Virus record (IMG/VR): IMGVR_UViG_3300030061_001386
Location: 1-64,000 of that record
Source: a virus
Taxonomy: Duplodnaviria > Caudoviricetes
Length of the DNA stretch: 64,000 nucleotides
Direction: 5' to 3' (one strand)
This document shows, piece after piece, positions 14,298 to 38,142 of the stretch. The position numbers and the translations under genes were made by a program. The notes under the pieces were generated by a model, which worked only from the letters and a program-made list of their open reading frames with translations, did no database searches and had not been told where the DNA came from. Position 1 is the first letter of the stretch, and every line of letters starts with the position of its first letter.

Positions 14298-15524
14298 TTA
14301 ATCACCTCTTGTTAATGCGTGTAGGTCGTCCCAAGACATATCAGCCGCCGCCTCAATGCTTGTTGGAAATCCTTCAGGAAGTGACATAGCCACTTCTTGT
14401 GCTTTCCTAATCTCAGAGTTTCTCTCTGTTAGAGATTTGCGTAGTTCAGCAAACTCTTCTTTCAGAGCCGCTACATCAGTACGAGCATCATATTCTGCTC
14501 TTTCTGCGTTAGCCTTTTTTACAGATAGTTCGTTAGTAAACCTTGCTTCGAACTCTTTGCTTAGAGAATCGTAAGCCATTGCTTCCATTCTCTCTGCTTT
14601 GAACTTAGCATAAGCCTTCTCAACATTTTCAGCACTCAAGTCAAGAGTAGAGAAATCAGTTCCCTCTAATCCTTTTGCTACGTTAAGTGCGGCAGGTGCG
14701 GCAGTAGGCTTTCCTCCACTTACTACTTCTTCTCCTGCTTCGAACTCTCTTGTTTCATCTTCATCAAGAGCCTTCTCTTCCATGTCTTCGTCTGCTTTTT
14801 CTTCCATGTCTTCGTCCATGTCGGCTTTTTCATGTCCATACATTTTCTCATCCATATCTGCATCAGTATCCATATACTCTGCGTTCTTCGTTACGGCGTC
14901 ATCAACTTCACTGTGAACGTTGTTAACTTGTTTCATCAAGTCATTCAACTCTTCCAGTGCTTTTTCCAATTTTTCACTCATTGTTTTATCCTCCATTTTT
15001 AAAATGTCGAACTTTGCTTCGGGATTAATCCCTTTCTCGCAGATTGTAACTTCATGCAGTTCCAACCTGTCTATCTCGTTGTACTCCCCATACTCATCAG
15101 AAGTCTTTTGCTTCTTTGAGATGGCTTGTCCACCTATACTAAAGGAACGAAGTGTTCCTTTTCTAATACCTCTTGATATTTCTTTTGCCTTTTCTATGTC
15201 ATCTCTTAGTTTGATAACTACATAGAACCCTACATCATCAACTGAAGTCTTGTGCAGTACACCGTGACTATCACGATATTGCTCAACAACTTCTCCAACT
15301 TGTACATTAGAATGATTAGACATTACATTTCTGTATTTCTCATCAGACATGTATTTCTTAACAGCATCATTTAATGCTTCTAGTGTGATTAAATCATTTT
15401 GTTTGTCAACTATTTCTATTGAAGCATAACCTCCAATGATTAGATTGTCTGACTTAAGAATGCTGAACTCATGAGAAGATTCTGCCTTCAGTAAAGGAGA
15501 TTCCATCATCAACATTGCAGTCAA
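14298..15524 (-). CDS. Prohead protease with C-terminal scaffold domain
   Basis: IIGGYAS...DKQND...H...GTLRSFSIGG...LHEVTICEKGINPEA (HK97/herpes-type serine protease), followed by an acidic coiled coil. Confidence 0.9.
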   Translation of the reverse strand: MTAMLMMESPLLKAESSHEFSILKSDNLIIGGYASIEIVDKQNDLITLEALNDAVKKYMSDEKYRNVMSNHSNVQVGEVVEQYRDSHGVLHKTSVDDVGFYVVIKLRDDIEKAKEISRGIRKGTLRSFSIGGQAISKKQKTSDEYGEYNEIDRLELHEVTICEKGINPEAKFDILKMEDKTMSEKLEKALEELNDLMKQVNNVHSEVDDAVTKNAEYMDTDADMDEKMYGHEKADMDEDMEEKADEDMEEKALDEDETREFEAGEEVVSGGKPTAAPAALNVAKGLEGTDFSTLDLSAENVEKAYAKFKAERMEAMAYDSLSKEFEARFTNELSVKKANAERAEYDARTDVAALKEEFAELRKSLTERNSEIRKAQEVAMSLPEGFPTSIEAAADMSWDDLHALTRGD

Positions 15525-15558
15525 GTTTCTACTCTTACTATATTAAATAAATGTAAAA

Positions 15559-18153
15559 TTAATCCTTTTTAGGTGTTGGGAAGTCTAATACAGCATATGT
15601 GTCTTCAGTAATATTCCATTTGTTAGGGTTCTCTTTATCCTCTAACATCTCTTGCTTCTTACCTGTCCATGCAATCCAACTCTTTTTCTCATCTAACGGG
15701 ACTACTCTGAAATGCATTCGAGTTTCAAACTTATCTCCATCAAGACGATATTCGTGATAACCATCTTTTTGTATTCCTAATTCAATCTCTCCTTTATCTA
15801 ACACTTTCTTTGACTCTCCTATTTTCTTAGAAACAATAGCAGGATACTTACCTGATTTACCGAATAGGTCATAGATATCTGTATTGCCTTCTATGTCTAT
15901 TGTCCAAGCCATACGTTCATCTTGGTAATCTATGATTAAATCTACATTATCGTCTTCTCTCAAAACGATTGTATATTTTCCCATGTTGTCTTTCTTCACT
16001 AGTTCTTCAATATCTTTTTCTAAAATATCTTCTCTAGCAGTAAACTTGTTCGGATGTAAATAGACTAAATCTTCTTGTTGTTTCATCCACGCCATTAGTT
16101 TACCATCATCTGAATCAAATAAATCTGCAAATGCTCCTTGATGTTTATCTACAACAAAGTCTAGTATTTTGCTAAATGGTAAGTTATCCCTACCACTTTC
16201 TAATATCTCATTCCTAATTGCTAACCTAAACATAGAACGTTTGCTTTTCATTATGTTAGCAACTTGTTCTTTCCACAAATCTATGTTATGTAAAGCATTT
16301 TTCTGCATTAGGCTATCTCCTTCAAACCCATAAATAGTAAATCCATTTAAGTCTTCTTTGAGTATTATTTCAGCAGTACCATGTGTATGGTCTGTAATGT
16401 AATATCCTTTCTTGACTTTCTTTTTCTGACCTCTTGGGTTTTGCAATCCACTAGTAACTTCAAACATCCCACCCACCTTATCTCCAAAGGTATATCCCAT
16501 TGCACTCAATGATTTTTTTGTCTTACTCGCAAGTTGTTCTAATGTCTCAACGGAATCAGAACGGGTGACTTCCGGTATCTCTATTACCTTAGCAGAAAAT
16601 AATTTGAACCCGTCTTTACCTTTTTTCACTTCATCAACTTTAACTCTAACAATACTACCAATCTTAACAGATTCTTTTGTATTCAAAGCCTTACCTACTT
16701 CAAGATAATCTTTATCTTCAAACTCAATTGTTTTGTAATTTCTTGCGGTTTCAGCATTTACTGGGCCAATACCCATAGTGTAAGAGTGTAAATTGCTTTT
16801 AGTTTTCTTAGCATCTAGCACTACTACATCCAAATCAACAAACTTCTTCCACTTAATCCACTTAGGATTTTTCTTAACTCCAATGTAATATGTTGATTCT
16901 ATGTCTTTAATTACAACTCCCTCAGAAGCAGGAAGTTGCATAATCTCTTTTGCATATTCTTCTACTTCCTTAATTGAATCTGCTATCCTTGTGTCTTTCT
17001 TGGATGGGAAGGCTAAGTCTTGTGATGAATGTTGAGAGTATTGATAGAGTAGAATATTATGTCTTTCTCTTAATGTTTCATCAGCAATGTTCTTTCCCTC
17101 ATGAACCATTATATCAAAAACATGCGCTCGTAGTTCCCCGCCCTTTTTATTTTTGAAAACGTGTGCAATTGTGTCTGCTCGGTGTAGTGGCTCATCTTTC
17201 ATAAACAACATTAGTTCACCATCTAATATACAGTCATTGAATGATTTCTTTTCAAGAGCCTTAACTTGCTCAGGACATTTACTAGTTATGTCTTTCTCGT
17301 TGTAAGAATAAATCGTTACCTTATTATTGAACTTATGAAGTTGTATTCTCATACCATCATATTTTTCTTGGACTATGTATTCTCCTGTCAACCCCTTAAC
17401 TTCTTTTAAATCATCAATCTCAAATATTCTATACATTGGTTTATTTGGAATTATGAAGTCAATAGATTGCTTTTCTTCATCACTTTTTGCAATATCTAAA
17501 TCTACTAAACTATCCCACTTATCTTCACTATATTCAGAACCGTAGACTTTTTGTAATAATTTGTATGCTCCCTTGAACTTGTTTTCTATTCTACGGGTAT
17601 CTTCATCTTCTTTACCATAGTGTTCTATAATGTAAAGTGGAATATCTTTAGGTTCTAAATCAAGTCCCATGTAGTCTCTTGTAATCTCATCAGGTTTCAA
17701 ATCAACTGCTAACCATGCTTTATCGGGAAGAGGATTAGCGTGAGAACGTAAAGCATAATGTATGAATGCGGCAAACGTAGACTCATCTTTGAGTAAAGTA
17801 GCAATTACCTTATCACCTAACTGTTTAGAAAATGGGTCACTTACTTCATCTGATTTGAATCTCATTTCCTTTATTGCTTCATACAATTCTTTAGCCTGTC
17901 TTGAACTAGGATTATATGTTTCATCAGAAAACGCTGTGTCTTCTTTTAGATATGTTTTGAGTTCTCTAGTAAAATCATCTATTGTATCGAACTGTTCTCT
18001 AACATCTTTTACTGTTTTTTTCCAAGCATCACCATATTCATCAGGGTTTTCTTTTGCAGAAAGATAAGAATACCTAACACGCTCAAAGAAGTCCAATACT
18101 TTCTTAGTCATTGTATTGGTTTCTTTCTCAAAAGATAACCCTGTCTGTGGCAT
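15559..18153 (-). CDS. Large ATP-dependent DNA ligase inside the head module, with N- and C-terminal extensions
   Basis: Motifs I QEKYDGMR, III LDGE, IIIa VFDIM, IV EGVVIK, V WIKWK, then an OB domain. Confidence 0.85.
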   Translation of the reverse strand: MPQTGLSFEKETNTMTKKVLDFFERVRYSYLSAKENPDEYGDAWKKTVKDVREQFDTIDDFTRELKTYLKEDTAFSDETYNPSSRQAKELYEAIKEMRFKSDEVSDPFSKQLGDKVIATLLKDESTFAAFIHYALRSHANPLPDKAWLAVDLKPDEITRDYMGLDLEPKDIPLYIIEHYGKEDEDTRRIENKFKGAYKLLQKVYGSEYSEDKWDSLVDLDIAKSDEEKQSIDFIIPNKPMYRIFEIDDLKEVKGLTGEYIVQEKYDGMRIQLHKFNNKVTIYSYNEKDITSKCPEQVKALEKKSFNDCILDGELMLFMKDEPLHRADTIAHVFKNKKGGELRAHVFDIMVHEGKNIADETLRERHNILLYQYSQHSSQDLAFPSKKDTRIADSIKEVEEYAKEIMQLPASEGVVIKDIESTYYIGVKKNPKWIKWKKFVDLDVVVLDAKKTKSNLHSYTMGIGPVNAETARNYKTIEFEDKDYLEVGKALNTKESVKIGSIVRVKVDEVKKGKDGFKLFSAKVIEIPEVTRSDSVETLEQLASKTKKSLSAMGYTFGDKVGGMFEVTSGLQNPRGQKKKVKKGYYITDHTHGTAEIILKEDLNGFTIYGFEGDSLMQKNALHNIDLWKEQVANIMKSKRSMFRLAIRNEILESGRDNLPFSKILDFVVDKHQGAFADLFDSDDGKLMAWMKQQEDLVYLHPNKFTAREDILEKDIEELVKKDNMGKYTIVLREDDNVDLIIDYQDERMAWTIDIEGNTDIYDLFGKSGKYPAIVSKKIGESKKVLDKGEIELGIQKDGYHEYRLDGDKFETRMHFRVVPLDEKKSWIAWTGKKQEMLEDKENPNKWNITEDTYAVLDFPTPKKD

Positions 18154-18162
18154 GTATCCCCC

Positions 18163-18684
18163 TCAAGCAGATGGTCTTGGAGGATTTATTGAACTTCTAG
18201 AACTAGCAGTTGACCCCATATCCATTTCCATTAGAACTCTAACGGCATTATGTGCTTTCTCCGCAGAACCCTTTCTTCCTTGTTTAAGTTCAGCAGTAGC
18301 CATCTCTAATTGTTTAACTGCATCTTTGTATGCCGCTTCTTCCATTAGGTTAGATTGGCTTTGTTCAAACGGGGAAGCATCACCACCTAAAGGAGAATAC
18401 TTTTCACCATATTGTTTAATTAAAGATTCTAACGCCTCAATCACACTAGCCTTAGTAACCTCATTGAGTTTATCCTCTTTACCTTCAACATTACTTGTCT
18501 TAGGCAGAGGTTCTTCTGATGGGTTTTTCTTAGGTCTTTTCACCTTGACTTCTTCACCTGTTAGTGGCTCATCTAGTTTTAGTGTACCTAGATGTTCTGC
18601 TTCTTGCAATACTTCTTTTGCTTTTAATATAGCCAATTCAACTATTTTTTCTTCCCATGTTACTCTCTCCGGCATTTTAATCAC
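18163..18684 (-). CDS. Hypothetical head-region protein
   Basis: ORF in the operon; TWEE...ILKA variant of the shared motif. Confidence 0.55.
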   Translation of the reverse strand: MIKMPERVTWEEKIVELAILKAKEVLQEAEHLGTLKLDEPLTGEEVKVKRPKKNPSEEPLPKTSNVEGKEDKLNEVTKASVIEALESLIKQYGEKYSPLGGDASPFEQSQSNLMEEAAYKDAVKQLEMATAELKQGRKGSAEKAHNAVRVLMEMDMGSTASSRSSINPPRPSA

Positions 18685-18911
18685 TCCATATCTTTTACTA
18701 GTTTGTGTATGTCTTCCCAGTCCATACTCTTTTTGATTGTACTTCCACCTACAATATTCCTACTATCCATAGTAGGAGAAGGAGATTCGTAAACAACGTA
18801 TCCCGATTTCATTAGTAGATTATCCTTATGATAAACTGCCTGTTCTAAAGCCTTTACTTTGTCAACTAATTCTTTCATTAACATAAGCATTTCATTATTT
18901 TCTTCACTCAT
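18681..18911 (-). CDS. Small coiled protein ending MDWEDIHKLVK
   Basis: Likely start at MSEEN; C-terminus resembles the protease C-terminus MSWDDLHAL. Confidence 0.55.
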   Translation of the reverse strand: MSEENNEMLMLMKELVDKVKALEQAVYHKDNLLMKSGYVVYESPSPTMDSRNIVGGSTIKKSMDWEDIHKLVKDME

Positions 18912-18912
18912 T

Positions 18913-18996
18913 TTATGCACCTTCCTGTATGTCTTTCATAGCAATTAACATGTCTTCTCGGATTCTTTGTCTTAGAACTATTTTCCAGTCTATCAT
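18913..18996 (-). CDS. 27-aa peptide MIDWKIVLRQRIREDMLIAMKDIQEGA
   Basis: Below the track cutoff; GGAG upstream; fills an operon gap; carries a W-x-x-V-L-R motif. Confidence 0.4.
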   Translation of the reverse strand: MIDWKIVLRQRIREDMLIAMKDIQEGA

Positions 18997-19039
18997 GTAA
19001 CTCCTGCTCCTTCGTGTAGTGGTCTAGTTCAATAAGGTT

Positions 19040-19387
19040 TCATTTACCATCCTTTTTCTTATTCTCAGGATAAACCATTTTCCTTAGTTGATTGTATAGT
19101 GTTTCATAGTCCTTTCTTAGTTCAGATGCTGATGCAAGTATTTCTAGATTTTTCTCATCAAAACCTTCTACTTGCTTACTTAGTTTCTTATCCGATTTTA
19201 CTATATCAATGTCTTTCAGTTCACCGATTAAGTCTGATAGTTGAGTCATCTCTTGACCCATTGTGTTAGTAGGTTGAGACTTCTGTAAAAGTTTCTTTAG
19301 TTTCTTTTTCTTCTTAGCGTCTATCTTCTCGATAAATACAGGAGAGAAGTAGAAGCCCTCTGCTTTAACAATATCAAACCACTTCAT
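19040..19387 (-). CDS. Hypothetical protein, WxxIVK leader
   Basis: Starts MKWFDIVKA. Confidence 0.6.
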   Translation of the reverse strand: MKWFDIVKAEGFYFSPVFIEKIDAKKKKKLKKLLQKSQPTNTMGQEMTQLSDLIGELKDIDIVKSDKKLSKQVEGFDEKNLEILASASELRKDYETLYNQLRKMVYPENKKKDGK

Positions 19388-21117
19388 TGAGACTCCCCCG
19401 TTGCTTCATCAGATGAGGGTTCATCTAATGATTGTTTTTGTTTAGGCAGATTTTCTAAAACTTTATCAATTACTTTGATTCTATCTTCTAATTCAGGTAA
19501 TTCTTGTTCATAGTAATCTATCCAATCTTCTAGTGATTCTTTCTGTTCCTCTATTTCATCTTCTGCAATATTGTTTGGATTACTACCATCAACTAATCCT
19601 TCTAGCCCTTCTTGATATGCTTCTGTTATTTTCTTATATTGTTCTATTGTTTCTAATAACTTATCTTTAGTTGATGTAAATAATCTAAATTGCTGAGATG
19701 GATTATCCGGTAAGTTTCCTGATTTAGCATCTTCTGCTACTTCCTTAACTTTACCACTGAACTCATTTATTTTGTCTTCAAGTGTTTTAGATTCTTCAAG
19801 TGTTTTAGAGCCAATATACCTATCAGGATATTTGAGAGAAGTCTTACTCCTAATACCAATCCTTTGTGGTGTTACTTTCTTAGGTGCTTTCTGTCTTCTT
19901 TTAGTTGCTTCAGGCGCATACTTCTCAGGGTCTTCTTCATAAAGTTCCCAAGCAGTTTCTAGATTCGGAAACTCTCTATTCATCTTAAGTGGTGAACGTC
20001 TATACTTGGTAGATATACCACGAACTCTTTTGAGCCTACTTTCTTTCAATCTACTAAAATCTCCTGTAAGAGTATTGATTCTAATTAGATATTCTAAAGC
20101 ATCAAATTGTTTTTCTAGTTCTGCTTTCATTTCACTTTCACTCATATCTTCATTAGTAGTATAAATTATGTCAGGAATCAACCTGTAAATCATCCTGAGA
20201 ATATTATCAGAATTAAAAAATAATCTATAATGTTCAGCAGGGTCTGCATTTTTAGTTTGAATTAATTTAGTTATCTCATCTACAAACTTGTCAATGTCTA
20301 AAGAATAATATTGTTCTACCCCTTTCATTCCTGCTTCTAGTTCCCCAACTTTTCTGACTGGGATTCTAGCAACTTGGTATATTTCCATTAGTATATCAAT
20401 GCTAGACTTACCATTGTATTCTCTAACTTCTGACCAACCATCTTCAAAAGTTGCATTTGGAGGAATAAATAATTTTGATACATCAGGCTTTAATCTACCT
20501 TTACCTTCTAGTAAATGTCTTTGAACTAACTTTGCACTAGAGGCTAAGTTTTCTCTCATATCTCTTATCAGATTTTTAGCCTTAGTGTTGTTACCATATT
20601 TAGACCAAGTATCTAATAGAGTTTTCATATTAACTGCAAACTTAATGCTTTGGTCAGTTCTAACACCTAAACCTATTTTTAATTTTTCAAGGGGTTGTTT
20701 ATCTCCTTCAAATAAAAACTCATATAATTCATTTTGTTCTTCTTGTAGCGTACTTAAATCAAGAGTACCTCCTTCTTTGAGTCTATCTAAACTACTTTTT
20801 TCAGGTTTAATTTGACTCTTTAAGTTGTCTATTCTGTTGATAAACTTCTGCTTATCTTTTTCCAAAGCAACAACATCTTTGTACTGTACTCCTCTTCTTG
20901 TTTGAGTTCTAATAGGAGAAGAACGGAAACCCATCCTAAGAATATTTCTTATTTTATTATCTTCTTCAGCCGCACGTTGCAATAACCTATCAGCCCGATA
21001 TAACGAACTTCTGTCAATTTTAGTTTCTTCTTTTTTATTTGCTGTATCAAACGCCCACCAAACATCAGCATGGATATCAGACCCATCTGTTCTTTTGAGG
21101 ACATCCATGAAAGTCAT
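19384..21117 (-). CDS. Large helical hypothetical protein
   Basis: 577 aa; starts MTFMDVLKR (motif variant). Confidence 0.6.
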   Translation of the reverse strand: MTFMDVLKRTDGSDIHADVWWAFDTANKKEETKIDRSSLYRADRLLQRAAEEDNKIRNILRMGFRSSPIRTQTRRGVQYKDVVALEKDKQKFINRIDNLKSQIKPEKSSLDRLKEGGTLDLSTLQEEQNELYEFLFEGDKQPLEKLKIGLGVRTDQSIKFAVNMKTLLDTWSKYGNNTKAKNLIRDMRENLASSAKLVQRHLLEGKGRLKPDVSKLFIPPNATFEDGWSEVREYNGKSSIDILMEIYQVARIPVRKVGELEAGMKGVEQYYSLDIDKFVDEITKLIQTKNADPAEHYRLFFNSDNILRMIYRLIPDIIYTTNEDMSESEMKAELEKQFDALEYLIRINTLTGDFSRLKESRLKRVRGISTKYRRSPLKMNREFPNLETAWELYEEDPEKYAPEATKRRQKAPKKVTPQRIGIRSKTSLKYPDRYIGSKTLEESKTLEDKINEFSGKVKEVAEDAKSGNLPDNPSQQFRLFTSTKDKLLETIEQYKKITEAYQEGLEGLVDGSNPNNIAEDEIEEQKESLEDWIDYYEQELPELEDRIKVIDKVLENLPKQKQSLDEPSSDEATGESQ

Positions 21118-21126
21118 TGTATCGCC

Positions 21127-21757: not shown

Positions 21758-21763
21758 TCTAAA

Positions 21764-24082: not shown

Positions 24083-24083
24083 A

Positions 24084-30938: not shown

Positions 30939-32725
30939 GCTCTACCACCTTCACTAGCAATCCATTGGTACGGTTGAGTTGCTCCCTTTTTATTATGTAG
31001 TATAGGCTTCTCCATAACCTCAGACATTTTCTCTTTTATTCTAGTTAGTAATTCTTTATGAATATTAGAATAAGTTTCAACTAATTCTTGTTTGAACTTG
31101 TCTATTCCTTCAGAGGTTCTCTCCTTTTTTAGTTTTCTTAGAGAGATTTGTAGGTTTCTATCACCTAACATGTATCCTTCTAGTTGTACTAACATAGTAA
31201 GTAAATCTGAAAATTGCAATGATTGTTTAGATGACACCTTGAAGTCTTTCAACTTCTTTCGTGTGTCTCCTACTTGACCTAAATAATTACCAATTGGGTC
31301 ATTATCAATATCCTCGAATAAAAATTGTAATGTTGGAATACGTTGTGGGTCAGTTATAGAAACAGTTCCTTCTGCTTTCTCTTCCATTTCTTTTAATGCC
31401 GCTAATATCTGTTCAGGTTCTCCAAACTCAACATCACCAACTCTCATGGTTTTTACAGAGCGTCTAACTCTAGAACCAAAAATATGCCCTAGTTCTTTTC
31501 TAACTAATTCTTGTTGTGGCTTTGTCGAACTTCCTTCCATTATAGCAACAAGTGCATCTCGCAAATCTGTCTTTAGAGTATATCTCCTAACTTGTGTTTT
31601 AGAAACTAATTCTTCATACTCCTTTCCTAGTTCTGCATTATACACTGCTGTTTTGAATTGACCATATCCTTTTGTTTGAGTTGGTGTAATACCTTTTTCA
31701 CGTTGATATTTACTAGAAACCCCAGTCTTTACAAACTTATTATACAATGCAACAATCTCTGCGTTATCTACAAGACCATCTCTAATGTCCTGCATAAATT
31801 GCTTCTCTTGTAGGGACTGCTTAGTTTGAGTTTTAACAAATCCAACATCTAGATTCAAAGTATCATTATTCAAAATATAATCCAAAGCAGGATATATTCT
31901 ACTAGTTGAGGCTGAACTTTTTTCTGCCCCAAAGAACTCTCGCTGTATGACTTGCATTGCCCTATTTACACTTTTAACATTTTCAAAATCAGTTAGGTTT
32001 GGCATAAATGGTTCTCTTGCTTGTCCTCTTATTGAACTAATAACCATCTTTAGATACTCTACTGCGAATGAATCTGATATAGTTGAAACATCTAACTTCT
32101 GAGAAGATATAACATCGTCTTCCTTATACTCATCAAGACCAAACACTTTTCCTAATACAGTTCTAACAATTTCTTTATCCGGTTTTCCACCTTGTAATAG
32201 TTTGGCCTGTTCAGGACTCATAAACTCAGGAAGAGTGACCGTCAACTTGCTACCTGAAACAAATGAAAGACCTTCTAATTTATCAGTTTCAAATGTCAAA
32301 GGTAATTGTAGTTCTATACCATCTGTAATATAGCCATAAAGTTCCGGCTTATCCTTGATGTAATTGAATATCTTTTCACCATTTTCTTCATCCCACCTAA
32401 GTAGCCTACTAGTCTTAGCACCTGATTTAGCAGTTCCCTTTTCTAAGAAAGTAATTAGAGGTTTGTGATTACCTGCAAGAAAGTCCTCATATAATTTTAT
32501 TTCTTTAGGATTCTTATAATCATCATCTTTTTTTGAAGCACCTAACTTATCCAACAGAGGTTGAAACGCTTTCTCAGGCAAACCATCTTCTATCAAATTA
32601 TTGACTGCCCTTCTAATTTGAGACTTACCATGATTAGCAAGTATCTCATCAAAGTTACCTGACTTTCTAGAAGCAACAATCTTATCACTGAGAGTTTGCC
32701 TTTTCAGAATCTCTGTCCAATTCAT
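30935..32725 (-). CDS. Large hypothetical protein, WxxILK leader
   Basis: Starts MNWTEILKR. Confidence 0.6.
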   Translation of the reverse strand: MNWTEILKRQTLSDKIVASRKSGNFDEILANHGKSQIRRAVNNLIEDGLPEKAFQPLLDKLGASKKDDDYKNPKEIKLYEDFLAGNHKPLITFLEKGTAKSGAKTSRLLRWDEENGEKIFNYIKDKPELYGYITDGIELQLPLTFETDKLEGLSFVSGSKLTVTLPEFMSPEQAKLLQGGKPDKEIVRTVLGKVFGLDEYKEDDVISSQKLDVSTISDSFAVEYLKMVISSIRGQAREPFMPNLTDFENVKSVNRAMQVIQREFFGAEKSSASTSRIYPALDYILNNDTLNLDVGFVKTQTKQSLQEKQFMQDIRDGLVDNAEIVALYNKFVKTGVSSKYQREKGITPTQTKGYGQFKTAVYNAELGKEYEELVSKTQVRRYTLKTDLRDALVAIMEGSSTKPQQELVRKELGHIFGSRVRRSVKTMRVGDVEFGEPEQILAALKEMEEKAEGTVSITDPQRIPTLQFLFEDIDNDPIGNYLGQVGDTRKKLKDFKVSSKQSLQFSDLLTMLVQLEGYMLGDRNLQISLRKLKKERTSEGIDKFKQELVETYSNIHKELLTRIKEKMSEVMEKPILHNKKGATQPYQWIASEGGRA

Positions 32726-33936
32726 TCTTTCACCCCTATTAATTGACTAAACCATTCTAATGATTTCCTAAACTGGCTATTGTGTCGTTGTGCAGGAGTC
32801 ATCCGTTGCCATCTCTGAGGAGAAATCGAGCGAGGTCTTCTAATTTGACTCTCATTAAGTCGTGAATGTCTTTCTTGCTTTTCGCTTCGTTGTTTTATAG
32901 CATCTGCCATTCTATTCATTTCTTCAGCATCAACCCATGTTGGGTCTTTTTTGACTTGTGCTATTGCGTTGGCTAACTCATATTGTAAACTTTTACGAAC
33001 CCATTCATAATATCTTTTAACTAATCTATCCATAGTTTCTCCGCCTGAAAAATACACAATCAATGAATTAATAGTTGATTCACGGTTTAAGTGTTCTAGC
33101 ATTTTTTCATTATGCCTAGTTTGTAATGCCTCCAAAACTAACCTTTCATTTGATAGTATAGACTCTTTAAGATTTTCAGAATCCTTATATCTACCCTTGT
33201 ATGCTTCATGTTCTTCAGGTATATCAGGTGTAAACTGCTTTAGTGATTCTTCAAACCCTCTAACTCTATATGCAGATAAACTGTTATTTTTCATTACCTC
33301 TTGCGAAAACATTTCTTTTATTCTACCAGTAAAATATTTTTTGAACTTGTCCTGAACTACATTTTCATCAGCATCCAAAAGTGCAAGTTTTTTTCCTTCT
33401 TCTAAAAAACGTTGATACTGTTGCATAGTTCTTTGATGCTTACCATATTTTCTTGGCTTGTTTGGATATTTCATACGCCCACTTGCTATTGTTTCTTTTC
33501 TAGGTGAAAAGAAATATTCTACTGCATCAGGATATTCATTAGTAGTATCTTCCTGAATAGTTTTCCTAACTAAAGTAACGTGCCATTCAGGAAACTTTTC
33601 CCTTAGTTCACTTAATTTACCACTTCCCATAGGTCTTTCTGTTATTAGACGAAGCCCTCTCCAAAGATATTTGCTCGAACCTCTTGGCGACTCACTAAAC
33701 ACTTCTTTACTTTCTCCATGCTTATCAGCAATAGTACGTCTAATTGATGGGTCTATTTCGCCTGTTTGGATTTTAAGGGCGGTAACATCTAAATCATATT
33801 CATTTAATCTTCTATCAAGTTCTTTGAGTTTTAACTCATATTCAGCCTCACGTTCAATGTCTGAACTTCTCATTGGTTGTTTTTTACCATCAGCCCCTAC
33901 AACCATTGGCATTTTCAAAACGCTAAACCAACTCAT
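32722..33936 (-). CDS. Hypothetical protein, WxxVLK leader
   Basis: Starts MSWFSVLKM. Confidence 0.6.
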   Translation of the reverse strand: MSWFSVLKMPMVVGADGKKQPMRSSDIEREAEYELKLKELDRRLNEYDLDVTALKIQTGEIDPSIRRTIADKHGESKEVFSESPRGSSKYLWRGLRLITERPMGSGKLSELREKFPEWHVTLVRKTIQEDTTNEYPDAVEYFFSPRKETIASGRMKYPNKPRKYGKHQRTMQQYQRFLEEGKKLALLDADENVVQDKFKKYFTGRIKEMFSQEVMKNNSLSAYRVRGFEESLKQFTPDIPEEHEAYKGRYKDSENLKESILSNERLVLEALQTRHNEKMLEHLNRESTINSLIVYFSGGETMDRLVKRYYEWVRKSLQYELANAIAQVKKDPTWVDAEEMNRMADAIKQRSEKQERHSRLNESQIRRPRSISPQRWQRMTPAQRHNSQFRKSLEWFSQLIGVKE

Positions 33937-34526
33937 TGTAACTCCTCCAACTCAGGTTCTAAAATCTCCTTCTCATCTTCCTTCCTTCTTGAAGTTGAAT
34001 CTTTAGGAGACTTATATCCTCTACCTCGTAAACCAGTTCCTTTTGATTTACCAGTTCTTTTAATGATATCAACCCAACTTTTTATTATTCCCATTCTTTT
34101 CATCCATTGTTGCTCACGATAAACGTCTTCAGGGCGTTTTTTTGGACTAAAAGTTTTACGAGAGTCTCTCAACATTTTTTCCCTCTCTTCCTTAAAATCT
34201 CTCGCTGCTATATTGATGGATTGTTTGAAAGCACGATAGAGTTCTTCTTCTCCATCTCCTTGTTCTCCCATTTTTGAAGTGTACATCAAATGTGGCCCTT
34301 GAGCCATGTACAACTCCCCATCACGAAACTTGAACTCATACACTGAACGTCTATCTTCACCCGCAATTTTTGACCTTAGAGTTAACTCAAAATCATCTCC
34401 CATTTTTCTGTTTATTCTTATTATCATGGTTCTGTCGCCAAACTTTTCTATGCCTTCTCTTCTAGCAATATCCTTTAGCCTTGATTGCATAGGCGTTAAC
34501 TGTTTTATTATATTGAACCAACTCAT
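33933..34526 (-). CDS. Hypothetical protein with two motif copies
   Basis: MSWFNIIKQ and internal SWVDIIKR; flanked by an 18-bp direct repeat. Confidence 0.6.
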   Translation of the reverse strand: MSWFNIIKQLTPMQSRLKDIARREGIEKFGDRTMIIRINRKMGDDFELTLRSKIAGEDRRSVYEFKFRDGELYMAQGPHLMYTSKMGEQGDGEEELYRAFKQSINIAARDFKEEREKMLRDSRKTFSPKKRPEDVYREQQWMKRMGIIKSWVDIIKRTGKSKGTGLRGRGYKSPKDSTSRRKEDEKEILEPELEELQ

Positions 34527-35179
34527 TGTAACTTATCCTCCATTTGCTTTCTAACGTCTAACCAAACTTCAGGATGATTCTGTGCCAATACTTCTTTGAT
34601 GATTTGCATTTGGTGAATAATAACAGTGTCTTGTCTCTTGTGGACTAACTTACCCTTGAACTCCATTAGATACTTCAAAGATTCACGAACCTCTTTTGCT
34701 AACTTAGTTAGTGAATCTATGTACTTAGCATCCAAATCATCTGAATCCATGAGTTGGTCTAACTTACCTTCAAGCCTAGAGATGTTACCACTAAGAGTAT
34801 CAATCTCATTTACTTCCTTAACTGCTAGAATATGTGCGGCGGCTTTTTGGACTAGAGGTTGAGTGTGTTGTTTTATGTGTCTGACAACTTGCTCCTTAGA
34901 ACTACCAACAATCTTAGCCGCTAAATCAGGAGTCATATCTCCACTGTAAAGTTCTTGCTCAATTTCTGAACGGTTCTCATATGTACATAGTTTACATCTT
35001 GGATTTGAAGCATCTGCATATCCTTCCATGTGATTACGTTGATGTTTTGCACTTGTGCCACTAGGCCAATTCATTCTAATATCCAAATCATCAGGTGAAC
35101 AAATCATAGTCTCCAAATCAGATTCAAGGGATTCCCTGTCCTCATGATTACAAAGCCTACAACGTTTTCTTGTTACCAT
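34523..35179 (-). CDS. Tandem CxxC...HxxxH Zn/HTH protein, candidate terminase small subunit
   Basis: Two repeats (CRLC...HQRNH and CKLC...HIKQH) plus a C-terminal coiled oligomerisation-like region; upstream of terL in the same operon. Confidence 0.45.
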   Translation of the reverse strand: MVTRKRCRLCNHEDRESLESDLETMICSPDDLDIRMNWPSGTSAKHQRNHMEGYADASNPRCKLCTYENRSEIEQELYSGDMTPDLAAKIVGSSKEQVVRHIKQHTQPLVQKAAAHILAVKEVNEIDTLSGNISRLEGKLDQLMDSDDLDAKYIDSLTKLAKEVRESLKYLMEFKGKLVHKRQDTVIIHQMQIIKEVLAQNHPEVWLDVRKQMEDKLQ

Positions 35180-35260
35180 TCAATATTCACCACAATAAGG
35201 ACACATAGTTCCTGACCAGTTATCTTCATCAATTTTCTTTATTCCTCTACAACAACTCAT
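35180..35260 (-). CDS. 26-aa Cys-rich peptide (MSCCRG...CPYCGEY)
   Basis: Exactly fills the gap between neighbours with an ATGA overlap. Confidence 0.4.
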   Translation of the reverse strand: MSCCRGIKKIDEDNWSGTMCPYCGEY

Positions 35261-36381
35261 AATCTCACCAACATATCTTGCCAATTATCAAACGACTTCT
35301 TCTGTTCATCGGGTTCAGGTCTTTCACCAAACTTGAGTGGACTTCTTGCCACATCTCCACTTGTCTGTTTGAAGTGCATTGCCATTCCTTTTGACTTGGC
35401 ACGAATAACAGCCATCCTCTTAATCTGCCTTCTAGACAACTTGAACCAACATTCTTCAATTTCATTTGGGATATTCAGATTCTTCAATGTCTTAACAGCA
35501 TCTGATTCCTTTTCATTTCTAATATCAAAAGATTGATTTTTGAACATTCTATAAATGGTAGAATCAGGAAATGAACCTGTTGTACCCTTGCCTTTATCCA
35601 AAGCAGAATCAATTACCTGTCTGATAACTGATATTGTTAGAGCCGTAGTTGCAGCCTTCGCTCCTTCAATGGGTACGGGGTTATCTTTTCCAATAGTTAA
35701 CTTGGCGTCATCTAAACGCTTTAACGCATTCTTAACAATAGTATGTAAACTAGGGGAATTGAAAGGTGAAGTATTGCCATCACCGTAAAGCACTTGCCAC
35801 ATTGGAGGTTCAGCAGTATTAGGACTAGTATTATACCATTCAGAATCTTTAGCAGGAACATCTTCATCTTTCAGTTCTCTAACTATTTCATATTGGTCAG
35901 TTCTGTAATGTCCATAAATAGGCTTAGTAGATATAACTGTCCCATTATCATCATCCCAATTACTAGGATTTGAAAATATAATATTTCTAGGGTCTGCTTT
36001 TGTTCCTTGAATACCATCCATCACACTATCTAATGCTTTGAGTGCTGTCTCTTGTTCAGGACTCATAGAAGGAGAATTGAATATAGACTTTAGTGCTTTA
36101 AAAATCTGAACTCCGCCTTTACCTTTTATCTTAGTTCCAGTCTTTCCCTTAACTCTACCTGCTATACCTTGATTCTTTACTAAATCTAGTAAACTCATTC
36201 CACTTGCTTCAGGACTTATCATACCAATAGCATCACCAGTAAGACCTTCAGCCTTTCTTTCCCAAATCTCAAACTCTTGTCTAAATGACTTAGCCTGAAT
36301 ATCAGTAGTGGCCTTACTACCATCAGGTAGTTTTACTGCCATACCTTTCTTTTTTCTTACGGGCTTTTTTCTTGCTACCAC
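35257..36381 (-). CDS. Hypothetical protein
   Basis: 374 aa; basic N-terminus; ends NWQDMLVRL. Confidence 0.6.
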   Translation of the reverse strand: MVARKKPVRKKKGMAVKLPDGSKATTDIQAKSFRQEFEIWERKAEGLTGDAIGMISPEASGMSLLDLVKNQGIAGRVKGKTGTKIKGKGGVQIFKALKSIFNSPSMSPEQETALKALDSVMDGIQGTKADPRNIIFSNPSNWDDDNGTVISTKPIYGHYRTDQYEIVRELKDEDVPAKDSEWYNTSPNTAEPPMWQVLYGDGNTSPFNSPSLHTIVKNALKRLDDAKLTIGKDNPVPIEGAKAATTALTISVIRQVIDSALDKGKGTTGSFPDSTIYRMFKNQSFDIRNEKESDAVKTLKNLNIPNEIEECWFKLSRRQIKRMAVIRAKSKGMAMHFKQTSGDVARSPLKFGERPEPDEQKKSFDNWQDMLVRL

Positions 36382-37144
36382 GTTTTTTTCCCCCTCCTGT
36401 TTTATTGTTGAATAATGCCGATGTTCCTGTTGCGGTAGTAGTAACTGCCCCTCCCATTCTTAGTATGTTAAACCAAGAATCATCATCGGCGTTTACTGAA
36501 CCCTGCATAGTCGCACTATGATGAAGACTATCAAACTTGCTAATATTAACATTAGTACCTTTATTCGATGCTTCTACAAACTCCCACATTTTCAATCTAG
36601 GAGTAATACCATGTTCTCTAGCCCATGCCATTGTTTTCATATCATTTTCTTTAGCCTTTGTTCTTAACTCACTAACAACCTTAGAAGCCGCTTCACGAAT
36701 GTTTTCATCCACCGAATAGTGTTGAGACAAACCATCTAATGCTTGTATCTCTTTATCCATCATTCCATACGCAACTAGTTCCTGTGCATTTCCATCTTTT
36801 ATTCTAGCATCTAAAAAATTACTAGAATTAGCCTTTTTCCATTCTTGCCATTCTCTAGCGAATACAGGGTCTTCCATTGTTATTTTATGAAGATACTCAT
36901 GGGTAAGAGTATCACTAAGTAAATCTACTACCTTTTCTTCAGAAACTTCAGGGTTATCCATTAATTTCTTAAACGCATTTAGAAAGATAGTGGTTTCACC
37001 AGTCTTAGGTTTGTAAACTCCGGCCATAGTTATAGGTGGTTTATTGATTTGTTTTAGAAACCAATTAACTCCACGCAATACTTTACCTGCTTTTCCTCCT
37101 AATTTAAATTGGAAGTCTTTTCTAATTGGGTCAAAGTAACTCAT
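36323..37144 (-). CDS. Putative zincin-like metallopeptidase-domain protein
   Basis: AGVY...TIFL...TLTHEYLH (HExxH) with a downstream E; internal SWFNILR before a basic tail. Confidence 0.55.
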   Translation of the reverse strand: MSYFDPIRKDFQFKLGGKAGKVLRGVNWFLKQINKPPITMAGVYKPKTGETTIFLNAFKKLMDNPEVSEEKVVDLLSDTLTHEYLHKITMEDPVFAREWQEWKKANSSNFLDARIKDGNAQELVAYGMMDKEIQALDGLSQHYSVDENIREAASKVVSELRTKAKENDMKTMAWAREHGITPRLKMWEFVEASNKGTNVNISKFDSLHHSATMQGSVNADDDSWFNILRMGGAVTTTATGTSALFNNKTGGGKKRGSKKKARKKKERYGSKTT

Positions 37145-37400: not shown

Positions 37401-37500
37401 TCTACATACGCCCCACAATAAGAACAGAAACAACCCTGACTTGAAAACTCTATCATTCTAACCCACTCACAAGTAAAACAAATACCAACAAACGGTTGCA

Positions 37501-38142
37501 TCAGTTACCACCTAATCTAGTTTCCCTATCGGTTAGTTGTTCTCTAGCATTCCAAGTCCCACTCCAAATGTCTCTGAAATTAGAACTGCCTTCTCTTTCT
37601 TTCCATTCCTTATACCCATGAACACTATTAAGAATTAATACCTTTCTTAGAGGCGGATTCAGCCAACCATTAACGTCTTTAATTAATCCTTCAGTATTCA
37701 ACGAATTAAGTAATTTAGTAGGTGTCAAATTAACGTCTGTTGCAAACTCAAGCCTTCGCTTAATATCTTGCACTGTATAGGAAAAGGTTGAATCTACATT
37801 TCCTTTACCTTCAGAGTCTTTATCTCCTGCACTAACAAAAGCATCATACGTTCCGGCCATTAACCCTTTATTCTCAATAGCCACTATTGCATCTTTCAAA
37901 GGGTATTGTTTATGATTGCGTAATCTAGCATATTTTTTTGCTTGGCTATTAAAGTGCGGCCTGACGATAACCATCGTTCCACTTTTAGTTCTGAAGATAT
38001 GACATTTGTCAAAGTTAGGCTTTACTTTATCTTCTAAGAAAAGAGTAGGTACAGCGAGAAAATTAGCCATCGGACTAACAGACCCATCATCCCCTGAGAA
38101 CTTCAACACATCGAACCATGACGGACTTATATCAAAGGGCAA
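37501..38142 (-). CDS. Hypothetical protein with SWFDVLK near the N-terminus
   Basis: ORF plus shared motif. Confidence 0.55.
   Translation of the reverse strand: MPFDISPSWFDVLKFSGDDGSVSPMANFLAVPTLFLEDKVKPNFDKCHIFRTKSGTMVIVRPHFNSQAKKYARLRNHKQYPLKDAIVAIENKGLMAGTYDAFVSAGDKDSEGKGNVDSTFSYTVQDIKRRLEFATDVNLTPTKLLNSLNTEGLIKDVNGWLNPPLRKVLILNSVHGYKEWKEREGSSNFRDIWSGTWNAREQLTDRETRLGGN

What the first reader, a model, noticed from the sequence alone, without database searches (positions are those of the whole stretch)
14298..38142. About 20 unrelated late proteins share a W-x-x-[ILV]-[LIV]-K peptide: a candidate capsid-targeting 'zip code'
Seen at N-termini: MKWFDIVK (19387), MTFMDVLK (21117), MSWQDILK (21644), MSWFDVIK (21757), MSWEDIIK (21961), MSWRGILK (22356), MDWFEVLK (24389), SDWFVTLK (24669), MNWFEVLK (24865), MNWTEILK (32725), MSWFSVLK (33936), MSWFNIIK (34526), MSYFDPIRK (37144), SWFDVLK (37501 ORF), IDWKIVLR (18996). 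Seen internally or at C-termini: SWVDIIK, SWFNILR, NWFYIMRK, NWQDML, MDWEDIHK, and the protease/scaffold end MSWDDLHAL. The protein bodies (38-596 aa) are otherwise unrelated. I saw no such leader on tail genes or on the + arm. Established analogy: T4 internal proteins carry a short N-terminal capsid-targeting sequence that the prohead protease removes. Inference: a modular amphipathic tag that mimics the scaffold's coat-binding tail and loads diverse cargo into the head for delivery to the host.
Basis: partly seen in the sequence, partly recalled or inferred. Interest (0 to 1): 0.87.

Follow-up and report, generated by a model that had tools for sequence, protein, structure and literature searches.

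The report
Shared 8-residue leader on head-module proteins
In a group of marine archaeal tailed viruses, about a quarter of the genes beside the capsid genes start with the same eight amino acids, which copy the tail of the virus's own capsid-assembly protease, so this is probably an address label that puts many unrelated proteins inside the virus head.

Summary
The window is part of a 92.7-kb archaeal head-tailed virus record. Ten minus-strand ORFs start with M-x-W-x-x-[ILVM]-[ILVM]-[KR]; shuffling predicts 0.005. About ten looser N-terminal, internal or C-terminal copies also exist.

In 73 related loci plus 8 whole genomes I found 362 tagged ORFs. Their bodies fall into 133 unrelated clusters. 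N-tags sit on 80 of 276 late-strand genes upstream of the capsid gene, against 3 of 695 elsewhere. Synonymous codons vary freely at positions 5-8, and conservation stops at residue 8, so selection acts on the peptide.

The protease-scaffold and two small families end in a related tail, M-S-W-x-D-I-H-x-L. Six of 10 distant relatives without N-tags keep such a tail on the protein upstream of their capsid gene.

Best reading (0.55): a prohead-targeting peptide that mimics the scaffold's coat-binding tail, possibly cleaved after Lys8. Packaging, cleavage and delivery are all inferred. I found no report of it in the literature I searched. It is a new variant of a known kind.

The parts
12901..14295 (-). 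Major capsid protein (464 aa), the presumed receptor of the tail and tag. It has a conserved N-terminal ...GNALLK|AGGVVG at residues 23-34.
   Evidence: Pfam SU10_MCP 5.8e-10 and PHROG major head protein 3.2e-24. The Lys column is conserved in 114 homologues down to about 28% identity.
14298..15515 (-). S78 prohead protease fused to a helical, scaffold-like C-terminal half (405 aa). The C-terminal tail MSWDDLHALTRGD lies at 14301-14339. FSILK (residues 17-21) and FDILK (residues 169-173) are invariant.
   Evidence: Pfam Peptidase_S78 5.2e-9 over residues 26-175. Alignment A4 of 31 sequences. The tail motif is present in 66 of 69 family members. A low-confidence AF2 model shows long helices and a short C-terminal helix at 395-403.
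18681..18911 (-). 76-aa helical protein ending in the protease-type tail ...SMDWEDIHKLVKDME. Candidate small scaffold or core protein.
   Evidence: The family has 64 members, 60 with the tail in the last 22 residues. Alignment A5 has M63 and W65 invariant.
18913..18996 (-). 27-aa mini-ORF MIDWKIVLR..., an off-register tag-like start. It is uncertain whether this is a gene.
19040..19387 (-). 115-aa protein with the N-tag MKWFDIVK.
   Evidence: The family has 68 members, 41 scored as tagged and others with degraded variants.
19384..21117 (-). 577-aa protein with the relaxed N-tag MTFMDVLK (Phe in place of Trp).
   Evidence: In its 12-member family, 2 members have MTWTSILK. No Pfam match, and one sub-threshold PHROG match (phrog_20635, unknown function, E 0.0046). 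No Atlas hit.
21351..21644 (-). 97-aa protein with the N-tag MSWQDILK.
21641..21757 (-). 38-aa protein with the N-tag MSWFDVIK, followed by a Lys-rich stretch and an Asp-rich loop.
21764..21961 (-). 65-aa protein with the N-tag MSWEDIIK.
21961..22356 (-). 131-aa protein with the N-tag MSWRGILK.
24084..24389 (-). 101-aa basic protein with the N-tag MDWFEVLK.
   Evidence: In its family, 5 of 12 members are tagged.
24394..24669 (-). 91-aa basic protein with a GTG start, (M)ISDWFVTLK. The tag is shifted by one residue.
24662..24865 (-). 67-aa basic protein with the N-tag MNWFEVLK.
27635..28192 (-). 185-aa protein directly upstream of TerL, with a tag-like C-terminus ...NWFYIMRK. Ambiguous: its position suggests a small terminase.
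   Evidence: In its family, 6 of 26 members scored as C-tagged.
30935..32725 (-). 596-aa protein with the N-tag MNWTEILK.
   Evidence: Only 21 homologues in 5.8 billion proteins. In the AF2 model (pLDDT 70) residues 1-8 are a detached, low-confidence helix. No fold match.
32722..33936 (-). 404-aa protein with the N-tag MSWFSVLK.
   Evidence: No homologue in 7 related genomes.
33933..34526 (-). 197-aa protein with the N-tag MSWFNIIK and a second, internal copy SWVDIIK (34059-34079).
34523..35179 (-). 218-aa zinc-ribbon-like protein with a protease-type tail near its C-terminus, ...VWLDVRKQMEDKLQ.
   Evidence: In its family, 23 of 30 members have the tail motif.
35257..36342 (-). 361-aa protein with the tag at its C-terminus, ...NWQDMLVRL. 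Orthologues end ...DWR[TS]IMKVxx or ...SWEEILKC.
   Evidence: In its family, 13 of 16 members are C-tagged.
36323..37144 (-). 273-aa protein with a weak N-terminal variant MSYFDPIRK and a strong internal copy SWFNILR|MGGA (36458-36478).
37501..38142 (-). 213-aa protein with a TTG start. The tag is at residues 8-14, ...SPSWFDVLK|FSGDDG.

Best explanation
The 8-residue block M-[STN]-W-x-[DENS]-[IV]-[LIV]-K is a portable prohead-targeting (cargo-loading) peptide of one clade of marine archaeal head-tailed viruses (magrovirus-like).

Proposed mechanism:
1. The S78 protease-scaffold fusion and a 76-aa helical protein end in a short amphipathic tail, M-S-W-x-D-I-H-x-L. By analogy with other scaffolds, this tail docks them to the inner face of the HK97-fold capsid protein during procapsid assembly.
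2. The N-terminal (sometimes C-terminal or internal) tag copies the first six residues of that tail. Any protein carrying it is therefore co-assembled into the procapsid.
3. The tag ends in [IV]-L-K. This could be a hydrophobic 'hook' like the RIIK hook of the phage 80alpha scaffold. Alternatively, or as well, it could be a site cut after Lys by the S78 protease, which would free the cargo inside the head as T4 does with its internal proteins.
4. The cargo is many small, fast-evolving proteins plus a few of 400-870 aa. It would travel in the virion and probably enter the host with the DNA.

What is shown: the motif, its protein-level conservation, its modular placement, its restriction to the head-proximal module, its likeness to the protease tail, and the wider distribution of that tail. 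What is inferred: binding to the capsid protein, packaging, cleavage and delivery.
For: Motif and chance:
- 10 strict N-terminal copies in the record against 0.005 expected.
- 255 of 1640 called genes in 80 related loci carry it. All 254 clean N-terminal copies in the 73 loci kept after de-duplication lie on the portal strand.

Modularity:
- 347 unique tagged proteins fall into 133 body clusters.
- An alignment of one representative per cluster has only M1 and W3 invariant and K8 at 90% or more.
- Information content falls from 2.4-6.4 bits at positions 3 and 6-8 to 0.55 bit or less from position 9 on.

Protein-level selection:
- Leu7 uses all six codons (6-25% each). Lys8 is AAA/AAG 65/35. 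Asp5 is GAT/GAC 74/26, the same as the genome background.
- The motif also occurs at C-termini and internally: 8 C-terminal, 23 internal and 13 near-N hits among 112 PSSM hits. In the p361 family 13 of 16 members are C-tagged.

Module restriction:
- 80 of 276 late-strand genes upstream of the capsid gene are N-tagged, against 3 of 695 others (Fisher p = 7e-44). C-tags are 8 against 0.
- Core genes are never N-tagged: portal 0/81, TerL 0/70, ligase 0/75, protease 0/69, MCP 0/63, p913 0/55.

Link to the scaffold:
- W.[DE][IVL][HRNE] occurs 152 times in the last 22 residues against 40 times at other positions. The 152 are in the protease (66/69), the 76-aa family (60/64), p218 (23/30) and three single proteins.
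- In the protease alignment, W395 and H399 are invariant and M393, S394 and D397 are 90% or more conserved.
- In 10 loci of distant capsid-protein relatives there are no convincing N-tags. A loosened scan (Trp or Phe at position 3) gave two stray matches.
- In 6 of those 10 loci the protein immediately upstream of the capsid gene still ends in the same kind of tail...KMSFEELNHLEVA...KMNFADVHKMARKF...KMTWREVEDYVAKMRGE.

Precedents (what I read is stated):
- 80alpha scaffold and SaPI1 CpmB share a C-terminal helix-and-hook with an RIIK motif. It inserts into a cleft of the capsid protein, and the two compete for it (PMC5644958, abstract and section 7).
- The T4 capsid-targeting sequence is a 10-20-residue N-terminal propeptide on otherwise diverse internal proteins and is removed by gp21 (passages of PMC7411985 and PMC3012670).
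- Encapsulin cargo-loading peptides occur at the N- or C-terminus (passages of PMC11190991).

Cleavage idea:
- The capsid protein has a conserved ...ALLK|AGG, and the Lys column is conserved in distant homologues.
- HK97 gp5 has K103|S104 at the end of its 102-residue scaffold domain (that this is the exact cut site is recalled).
- Internal tags are followed by small residues, ILR|MGGA and VLK|FSGD.

Cargo turnover: p577, p596 and p404 have no homologue in 7 related genomes.
Against: - There is no direct evidence that any tagged protein is in a particle, that the peptide binds the capsid protein, or that it is cut.
- Cargo proteins carry no recognisable virion or ejection-protein domains. Among 133 representatives there were 9 sporadic Pfam families, each in one member. 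None of 10 large tagged proteins matched anything.
- Roughly 6-16 different tagged proteins per genome is a lot of cargo.
- There are exceptions: one tagged gene on a replication arm (G007), one just downstream of the capsid gene (G002), and one on the opposite strand (G005).
- The 185-aa protein in the small-terminase position has a tag-like C-terminus, and a terminase subunit is not expected inside heads.
- FSILK and FDILK in the protease lie inside the S78 domain. They may simply be strands of the fold, and FSILK sits just before the conserved GGYAS, where HK97 gp4 has its GYAS (my own reading of the gp4 N-terminus printed; no alignment was run).
- Position in a head operon does not prove packaging. 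From memory, anti-CRISPR genes of Mu-like phages sit in head operons without being packaged.
- The nearest named relatives (Druskaviridae, HVTV-1) have no such tag, so the virion proteome published for them, as I recall it, cannot be borrowed.
- My gene calls are crude (first ATG, greedy longest ORF), and the related loci are not independent samples.
Confidence: 0.55

Rival explanations
1. The peptide is a short linear motif for a different shared partner, not the capsid interior. Candidates are a viral or host chaperone, the portal or terminase, or a host hub protein. In this reading the tagged proteins are accessory or take-over proteins that work in the cytoplasm.
For: - The motif behaves like a classic docking motif: 8 residues, amphipathic, at either terminus, on unrelated bodies.
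- The cargo is mostly small ORFans (median 102 aa) with no structural-protein signatures.
- A tag-like end on the protein in the small-terminase position fits a partner outside the shell.
Against: - The same core (M-S-W-x-D-I) ends the protease-scaffold and a small helical protein.
- A similar tail ends the protein upstream of the capsid gene in 6 of 10 distant relatives that lack N-tags. That is the place of coat-binding tails in known scaffolds.
- The motif is almost absent from replication-arm and tail genes.
- The DNA pattern is at chance level in 596 Gb of prokaryote genomes: 36 scattered single hits, against about 26 expected by my own estimate, and none in a record whose title names Poseidoniales or another marine group II archaeon. 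So there is no sign that it copies a host motif.
Confidence: 0.2
2. The leader is mainly a protease recognition and cleavage propeptide. It would be an activation or timing switch cut after Lys8 by the S78 protease, with no targeting role of its own.
For: - Lys8 is 96% conserved (334 of 347).
- [IV]-L-K resembles the conserved ALLK of the capsid-protein N-terminus and FDILK at the end of the protease domain.
- HK97's S78 protease system has Lys at the capsid-protein maturation junction (the cut site itself is recalled).
Against: - Trp3 is the only invariant residue besides Met1, and it is missing from the capsid-protein and protease sites, so the tag holds more than a cleavage site.
- C-terminal copies leave only 1-5 residues after the Lys, where cutting would achieve little.
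- The protease tail lacks the L-K yet keeps M-S-W-x-D-I.
- From general knowledge, a prohead protease is active inside the procapsid, so being its substrate already implies being inside.
Confidence: 0.1
3. The conservation is at the nucleic-acid level: a start-codon context, translational coupling or mRNA-structure effect in a tightly packed operon.
For: - Position 2 is under DNA-level constraint. Ser2 is AGT in 97% of Ser-bearing tags, and 6 of the 10 window tags overlap the upstream stop as ATGA.
- AGT is also the commonest second codon of untagged genes: 68 of the 112 Ser second codons among 779 genes.
Against: - Positions 5-8 use synonymous codons freely.
- The same peptide occurs at C-termini and internally.
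- The protease tail keeps M-S-W although it is not a start.
- Highly expressed late genes such as capsid, portal and tail genes lack it.
Confidence: 0.02
4. The tagged genes are diverged paralogues of one ancestral gene. The leader would be the last recognisable remnant, with no common function.
For: - Tagged genes are clustered and often tandem.
- Some small Lys-rich ones look alike just after the tag.
Against: - There are 133 clusters, with lengths from 33 to 869 aa.
- There is no detectable similarity among the window bodies.
- A neutral remnant would not stay invariant at Trp3 and 96% Lys at position 8 while everything from residue 9 on is random.
- The tag changes ends between families.
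Confidence: 0.03

Closest known systems
Capsid targeting sequence (CTS) of phage T4 internal proteins (IPI-III, Alt)
   Same: It is a short N-terminal leader shared by otherwise diverse, fast-evolving proteins encoded with head genes. In T4 it directs them into the prohead core and is removed by the prohead protease, and the cargo is injected (passages read in PMC7411985 and PMC3012670). The hypervariable cargo behind a conserved leader is mirrored here.
   Different: - The protease family differs: S78/HK97-type here, not T4 gp21.
- The motif differs: W-x-x-[IV]-L-K against T4's 10-20-residue leader. That the T4 leader ends at an L/I-x-E cut site is recalled.
- The tag also works from C-termini here.
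- It copies the protease-scaffold's own tail.
- There are far more tagged families.
- The host is archaeal.
- Packaging and cleavage are untested here.
Coat-binding C-terminal tails of scaffolding proteins and their mimics (80alpha scaffold and SaPI1 CpmB 'helix-and-hook' with RIIK; HK97 gp4 protease C-terminal tail)
   Same: It is a short amphipathic C-terminal helix, followed by a hydrophobic-hydrophobic-Lys hook, on the scaffold or protease encoded beside the capsid gene. A second protein (CpmB) carries the same tail and competes for the same cleft of an HK97-fold capsid protein (PMC5644958, abstract and section 7). Here the protease, p76 and p218 carry the tail, and N-tags end in I-L-K.
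   Different: - The sequences are unrelated (RIIK against W-x-D-I-[LH]).
- Mimicry here is by dozens of families and mostly from the N-terminus.
- The HK97 gp4 result (Duda, Oh and Hendrix 2013) is recalled. I saw it only as a reference-list entry, and the paper is not held.
- Binding was not shown here.
Encapsulin cargo-loading peptides
   Same: A conserved short peptide at the N- or C-terminus of unrelated cargo proteins loads them into an HK97-fold shell (passages of PMC11190991). The capsid protein here is HK97-fold class (SU10_MCP).
   Different: Encapsulins are DNA-free cell compartments with one or a few cargo types and different peptides (for example LTVGSLRR). Here the shell is an infectious capsid with portal, terminase and protease, and there are many cargo families.
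Protease-scaffold fusion proteins of tailed phages and herpesviruses
   Same: An N-terminal serine protease domain is followed by a helical scaffold region and a terminal capsid-binding tail. The architecture is seen and, at low confidence. The comparison itself is recalled.
   Different: The herpesvirus release and maturation sites are V/L-x-A|S (recalled). No cleavage site has been mapped here.

Membership tests
T4-type capsid targeting sequence system | A short N-terminal leader common to otherwise unrelated proteins encoded with head genes | tested here: met
   10 strict copies in the window. 133 body clusters. 80/276 against 3/695 genes by module.
T4-type capsid targeting sequence system | The leader is removed by the prohead protease at that protease's consensus site | not testable with these tools
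   Only indirect hints: the tag ends in [IV]-L-K, the capsid protein has a conserved ALLK|AGG, and HK97 has K103|S104.
T4-type capsid targeting sequence system | The tagged proteins are in the virion and are ejected into the host | not testable with these tools
   There are no particle proteomes for this uncultured group. No paper read mentions the motif.
T4-type capsid targeting sequence system | Homology to the T4 components (gp21-type protease, T4 leader sequence) | tested here: not met
   The protease is Pfam Peptidase_S78. The motif W-x-x-[IV]-L-K is unlike the T4 leader (the T4 motif is recalled). So this is an analogue, not a member.
Scaffold/protease coat-binding C-terminal tail | A conserved short motif at the extreme C-terminus of the scaffold or protease encoded next to the capsid gene | tested here: met
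   66 of 69 protease homologues and 60 of 64 members of the 76-aa family carry it. It is also present in 6 of 10 distant relatives.
Scaffold/protease coat-binding C-terminal tail | The tail physically binds the capsid protein | not testable with these tools
   No tool here measures binding. It needs a pull-down or a procapsid loading assay.
Scaffold/protease coat-binding C-terminal tail | Other proteins carry a copy of the tail (mimicry, as with CpmB) | tested here: met
   At sequence level only. N-tags share M-S-W-x-D-I with the tail. p218 carries the tail type and the p361 family carries the tag type at the C-terminus.
Encapsulin cargo-loading peptide | A terminal peptide on cargo loaded into an HK97-fold shell | tested here: inconclusive
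   The terminal peptide and an HK97-class capsid protein are present. Loading is untested.
Encapsulin cargo-loading peptide | An encapsulin shell protein (no portal, terminase or DNA) and an encapsulin-type peptide consensus | tested here: not met
   Portal, TerL, protease and tail genes are present. The peptide differs from the encapsulin peptides quoted.
Peptidase S78 (HK97-type prohead protease), for the tail-bearing protein | A match to the family profile above the curated cut-off | tested here: met
   36.9 bits against a cut-off of 21, covering residues 26-175. PHROG head maturation protease 3.2e-14.

The most novel reading that the evidence does not exclude
This abundant clade of marine archaeal viruses runs an encapsulin-like cargo-loading system inside an infectious capsid. 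Any gene that acquires the 8-residue copy of the scaffold's coat-binding tail gets its product loaded into the procapsid. The S78 protease then cuts after Lys8 and frees it, and the virion delivers a large, rapidly changing arsenal (more than 130 protein families across the clade, about 6-16 per genome) into the host with the DNA. On this reading the tag would predict packaged proteins from sequence alone, in viruses that cannot be cultured.
Probability: 0.35. Interest if true: 0.9.

Novelty: new variant of a known kind. Interest (0 to 1): 0.8.

Why it matters
- Marine group II archaea and their viruses are very abundant in surface oceans but uncultured (abstract of PMC5434244). Nearly all of these head-module genes are annotated as hypothetical.
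- If the leader is a loading tag, it sorts dozens of ORFans per genome into 'carried in the particle'. It would point to a large injected arsenal, probably host take-over or anti-defence. It would also show how a scaffold's docking peptide can be co-opted as a general address label.
- It makes a concrete, cheap experiment possible without the host: procapsid assembly with tag-GFP.
- It could give an 8-residue loading tag for HK97-fold nanocontainers.
- Even if packaging is wrong, one peptide conserved on more than 130 unrelated families marks a hub interaction worth finding.

Tried and rejected
- **Complex prediction.** I submitted the capsid protein (alignment A2, 114 rows) with the first 40 residues of a tagged protein (alignment A3, 131 rows of non-homologous tag-bearing N-termini). 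The result was 'no answer', score 0.00, and controls were not run. It counts neither for nor against binding.
- **AF2 of the protease-scaffold (A4).** Mean pLDDT 48.9. I used it only for rough helix positions.
- **AF2 of p596 (A6, 13 rows).** pLDDT 70. Foldseek against PDB gave no match at E <= 0.001, so cargo function remains unknown.
- **ESM Atlas on p596 and p577.** No usable hit.
- **Pfam and PHROGs on cargo.** The 133 cluster representatives gave only sporadic families: PAP2, DnaJ CXXCXGXG, zinc ribbons, DUF6321, DUF5754 and unnamed PHROGs. Ten large tagged proteins gave nothing. Window proteins gave nothing informative.
- **PDB sequence search with the protease profile.** Only chance-level hits.
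- **Translation-context explanation.** Rejected on codon usage and on the C-terminal copies.
- **Paralogy.** Rejected.
- **Host-motif mimicry.** A scan of 596 Gb of prokaryote genomes with one DNA version of the tag gave 36 scattered single hits. I estimated about 26 by chance myself. That scan covers only the AGT-Ser, GAY-Asp codon version.
- **Haloarchaeal relatives.** HVTV-1 (portal 27% identical) has no tag.
- **Literature.** The motif is not mentioned in three magrovirus papers searched by 'find'. Six peptide strings gave no hit in the full-text library. Supplements are closed and were not seen; they may hold gene tables but are unlikely to describe the motif.
- **Closed or missing sources.** Duda et al. 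2013 is not held, so what it shows is recalled.
- **Not tried.** Sequencing-run and read tools were not used, so expression timing is untested.

Full report
**Context.** The window is bases 1-64000 of a 92,721-base IMG/VR virus record, estimated 94% complete. GC skew and the ORF map show two divergent arms.
- The minus arm runs from about 42.4 kb down to base 1 and continues at 92.7-76.1 kb. It encodes TerL (26199-27632), portal (22427-24082), a DNA ligase (15559-18153), an S78 prohead protease (14298-15515), an SU10-type HK97-class major capsid protein (12901-14295), and then tail genes.
- The plus arm (42.4-75.6 kb) has the position and strand of a replication arm. I did not annotate its genes.
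- The closest named relatives in GenBank phage records are haloarchaeal Druskaviridae (HVTV-1, portal 27% identical). This matches what has been described for viruses of marine group II archaea (abstract of PMC5434244). I did not prove the family assignment.

- A six-frame scan of the whole record for M.W..[ILVM][ILVM][KR] finds 10 matches. All are on the minus strand between 19387 and 34526. All open ORFs of 38-596 aa, have an in-frame stop 0-29 codons upstream, and have a Shine-Dalgarno-like stretch before the ATG.
- Residue shuffling of the called proteins predicts 0.005 such N-termini per genome.
They are a Phe variant on the 577-aa protein, a GTG-started and a TTG-started copy shifted by one and seven residues, two internal copies, and C-terminal copies on the 361-aa and 185-aa proteins, the protease and a 76-aa ORF.
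- The bodies of 17 such window proteins share no detectable similarity (best E-value 0.019).

**It is a clade-wide feature.**
- The portal has 371 relatives in IMG/VR, and I examined the best 80 loci (portal 72% identical or more). In these, 255 of 1640 called genes start with the strict motif, all on the portal strand.
- I removed seven loci that duplicate whole genomes I fetched and added 8 whole genomes. That set has 377 six-frame matches. Of these, 321 are clean N-termini of ORFs of 30 aa or more, and 304 of the 321 have an SD-like site.
- The 362 tagged ORFs (347 unique proteins) fall into 133 single-linkage clusters when residues 11 to the end are compared.
- An alignment of one representative per cluster has only M1 and W3 invariant and K8 at 90% or more. 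Information content is high at positions 1-8 and collapses to 0.55 bit or less from position 9. The unit is therefore exactly eight residues.
Every locus that also held a marker gene belonged to the same clade (TerL 68-87% and capsid protein 59-79% identical).
- The same pattern in 596 Gb of prokaryote genomes gave 36 scattered single hits, about what I estimate by chance.

**Selection is on the peptide, not the DNA.**
- At Leu7 all six codons are used (6-25% each). Lys8 is AAA/AAG 65/35. Asp5 is GAT/GAC 74/26, exactly as in the genome at large.
- Only position 2 looks nucleotide-constrained: Ser is AGT in 97% of Ser-bearing tags. AGT is also the commonest second codon of untagged genes, and 6 of the 10 window tags overlap the upstream stop as ATGA (coordinates). 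So that part is start context.
- A position-weight scan finds the motif at C-termini as well. In the 361-aa family, 13 of 16 members end ...[SD]W[RK]xI[MV]KVxx or the like. That cannot be a translation-start effect.

**It is confined to the head-proximal module.**
- In 8 whole genomes, 80 of 276 late-strand genes upstream of the capsid gene are N-tagged, against 3 of 695 other genes (p = 7e-44). C-tags are 8 against 0.
- The conserved core genes (portal, TerL, an HNH-like protein, ligase, protease, capsid protein, a 913-aa protein) are never N-tagged.
- The cargo turns over fast. The window's 577-, 596- and 404-aa tagged proteins have no homologue in the seven other genomes. The 596-aa protein has only 21 homologues among 5.8 billion proteins.
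- Within families, tags are present in some members and degraded or absent in others.

**The link to the scaffold.**
- The protease is a fusion. It has an S78 domain (residues 26-175), a variable acidic linker, long predicted helices, and a short terminal helix (low-confidence model).
- Its last 13 residues...MSWDDLHALTRGD, are conserved as [ML]-S-W-x-D-[IL]-H-x-[LIF]. W395 and H399 are invariant in 31 sequences.
- The pattern W.[DE][IVL][HRNE] occurs 152 times in the last 22 residues of proteins, against 40 times everywhere else. The 152 lie in the protease (66/69), a 76-aa helical protein just downstream of the tagged cluster (60/64; window copy at 18681-18911), a 218-aa zinc-ribbon-like protein (23/30; window 34523-35179), and three single proteins.
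- The N-tag consensus M-S-W-x-D-I-L-K shares its first six positions with this tail, including the Met and Ser, which in the tail are not a start.
- I examined 10 loci of distant capsid-protein homologues (queries about 40-44% identical to the window's capsid protein). They contain no convincing N-tags; a loosened scan gave two stray matches.
- In 6 of those 10 loci the protein directly upstream of the capsid gene still ends in the same kind of tail. It is either a roughly 385-aa protein I take to be the protease or a 147-177-aa protein, ending ...KMSFEELNHLEVA...KMNFADVHKMARKF or ...KMTWREVEDYVAKMRGE. The other 4 have no such tail.
- So the tail is the older element and belongs to the scaffold or protease. 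The N-tag is a clade-specific copy of it.

**Mechanism.**
- In known tailed phages the scaffold's C-terminal end is what binds the coat protein. In 80alpha it is an amphipathic helix plus an R-I-I-K hook lodged in a cleft of the HK97-fold protein, and the satellite protein CpmB carries the same end and competes for the site (PMC5644958, abstract and section 7).
- HK97's protease is, from memory, targeted by its C-terminal tail (Duda et al. 2013; seen only as a reference).
- T4 internal proteins share an N-terminal targeting leader that the prohead protease removes. Encapsulin cargo carries terminal loading peptides.
- The simplest reading is therefore that tail and tag dock to the same site of the procapsid, most likely on the capsid protein, and that tagged proteins are co-assembled into the head.
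- The ending [IV]-L-K could be a hook like RIIK. The C-terminal copies end ...ILK plus 1-5 residues, much like RIIK(N).
- It could also be a cleavage site. The capsid protein has a conserved ...ALLK|AGG whose Lys is conserved in homologues down to about 28% identity. HK97, whose protease is the S78 type, has K103|S104 at its maturation junction (the cut site is recalled). Internal tags are followed by small residues.
- I put cleavage at roughly 40%. In the AF2 model of the 596-aa protein the tag is a detached, low-confidence helix ahead of the fold, as expected for a flexible tag.

**What is missing.**
- Nothing here shows binding, packaging, cleavage or delivery.
- The single complex prediction returned no verdict.
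- Cargo function is unknown.
- There are exceptions: one tagged gene on a replication arm and a tag-like end on the protein in the small-terminase position.
- Gene calls were crude and the related loci are phylogenetically dependent. The 133 body clusters are the fairest count of independent cases.

**Novelty.**
- I found no mention of the motif in three magrovirus papers ('find' on main text) or by peptide strings in the full-text library. Supplements could not be read.
- The kind of system, a short targeting peptide for an HK97-fold shell, is known. New here are the peptide, its origin as a copy of the protease-scaffold tail, its use from either end, the number of cargo families, and its occurrence in archaeal viruses.

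**Verdict.** It is a new variant of a known kind. Interest 0.8.

Noticed in passing
window 15559-18153 (-): An 864-aa ATP-dependent DNA ligase (Pfam DNA_ligase_A_M 3.6e-29) sits inside the head module, between the tagged genes and the protease. Its position is conserved in the 7 related whole genomes, and the family has 75 members in my set. It has about 200 N-terminal and 340 C-terminal residues of unknown function. This is an odd place for a replication or repair enzyme.
   Followed up: partly
window 21127-21354 (-): A 75-aa protein family (66 members) has its own conserved C-terminal motif: a Lys/Arg-rich stretch followed by ...ENIPF...ENKW or ...NNPWG at the very end. This may be a second terminal docking motif in the same module.
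   Followed up: no
window 21641-21757 (-) and 62927-63196 (+): Asp-rich loops that look like EF-hand or calcium-binding loops...DVDKDGDIDGDDF... in the 38-aa tagged protein and ...DINEDGVVDIEDV... in an 89-aa plus-arm protein. The resemblance is recalled, not tested.
   Followed up: no
window 24862-26187 (-): A conserved protein of about 440 aa lies between TerL and portal, with a weak HNH endonuclease match (PHROG 1.7e-5). HVTV-1 also has an HNH gene between TerL and portal.
   Followed up: no
G000 78725-88969 (-), outside the window: A 3414-aa ORF in the tail-fibre region of the same record. It has only patchy similarity in related genomes.
   Followed up: no
window 36458-36478 and 38098-38121 (-); G002, G003, G007 loci: A sub-type of the tag is followed by small residues (W-F-x-[IV]-L-[KR]-x-[GS]-G-[AD]). 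It lies internally, about 50 residues before the end of the protein that precedes the C-tagged 361-aa family. It could mark an internal processing site or a gene fusion.
   Followed up: partly
window 14298-15515 (-), residues 205-290: The linker between the protease and the scaffold helices is a highly variable Asp/Glu/Met-rich low-complexity stretch. Its length differs among close relatives.
   Followed up: no
L148 and L163 (IMG/VR loci): Some relatives carry 16 and 14 strict tags within about 14 kb, far more than the window. Cargo number varies widely within the clade.
   Followed up: no
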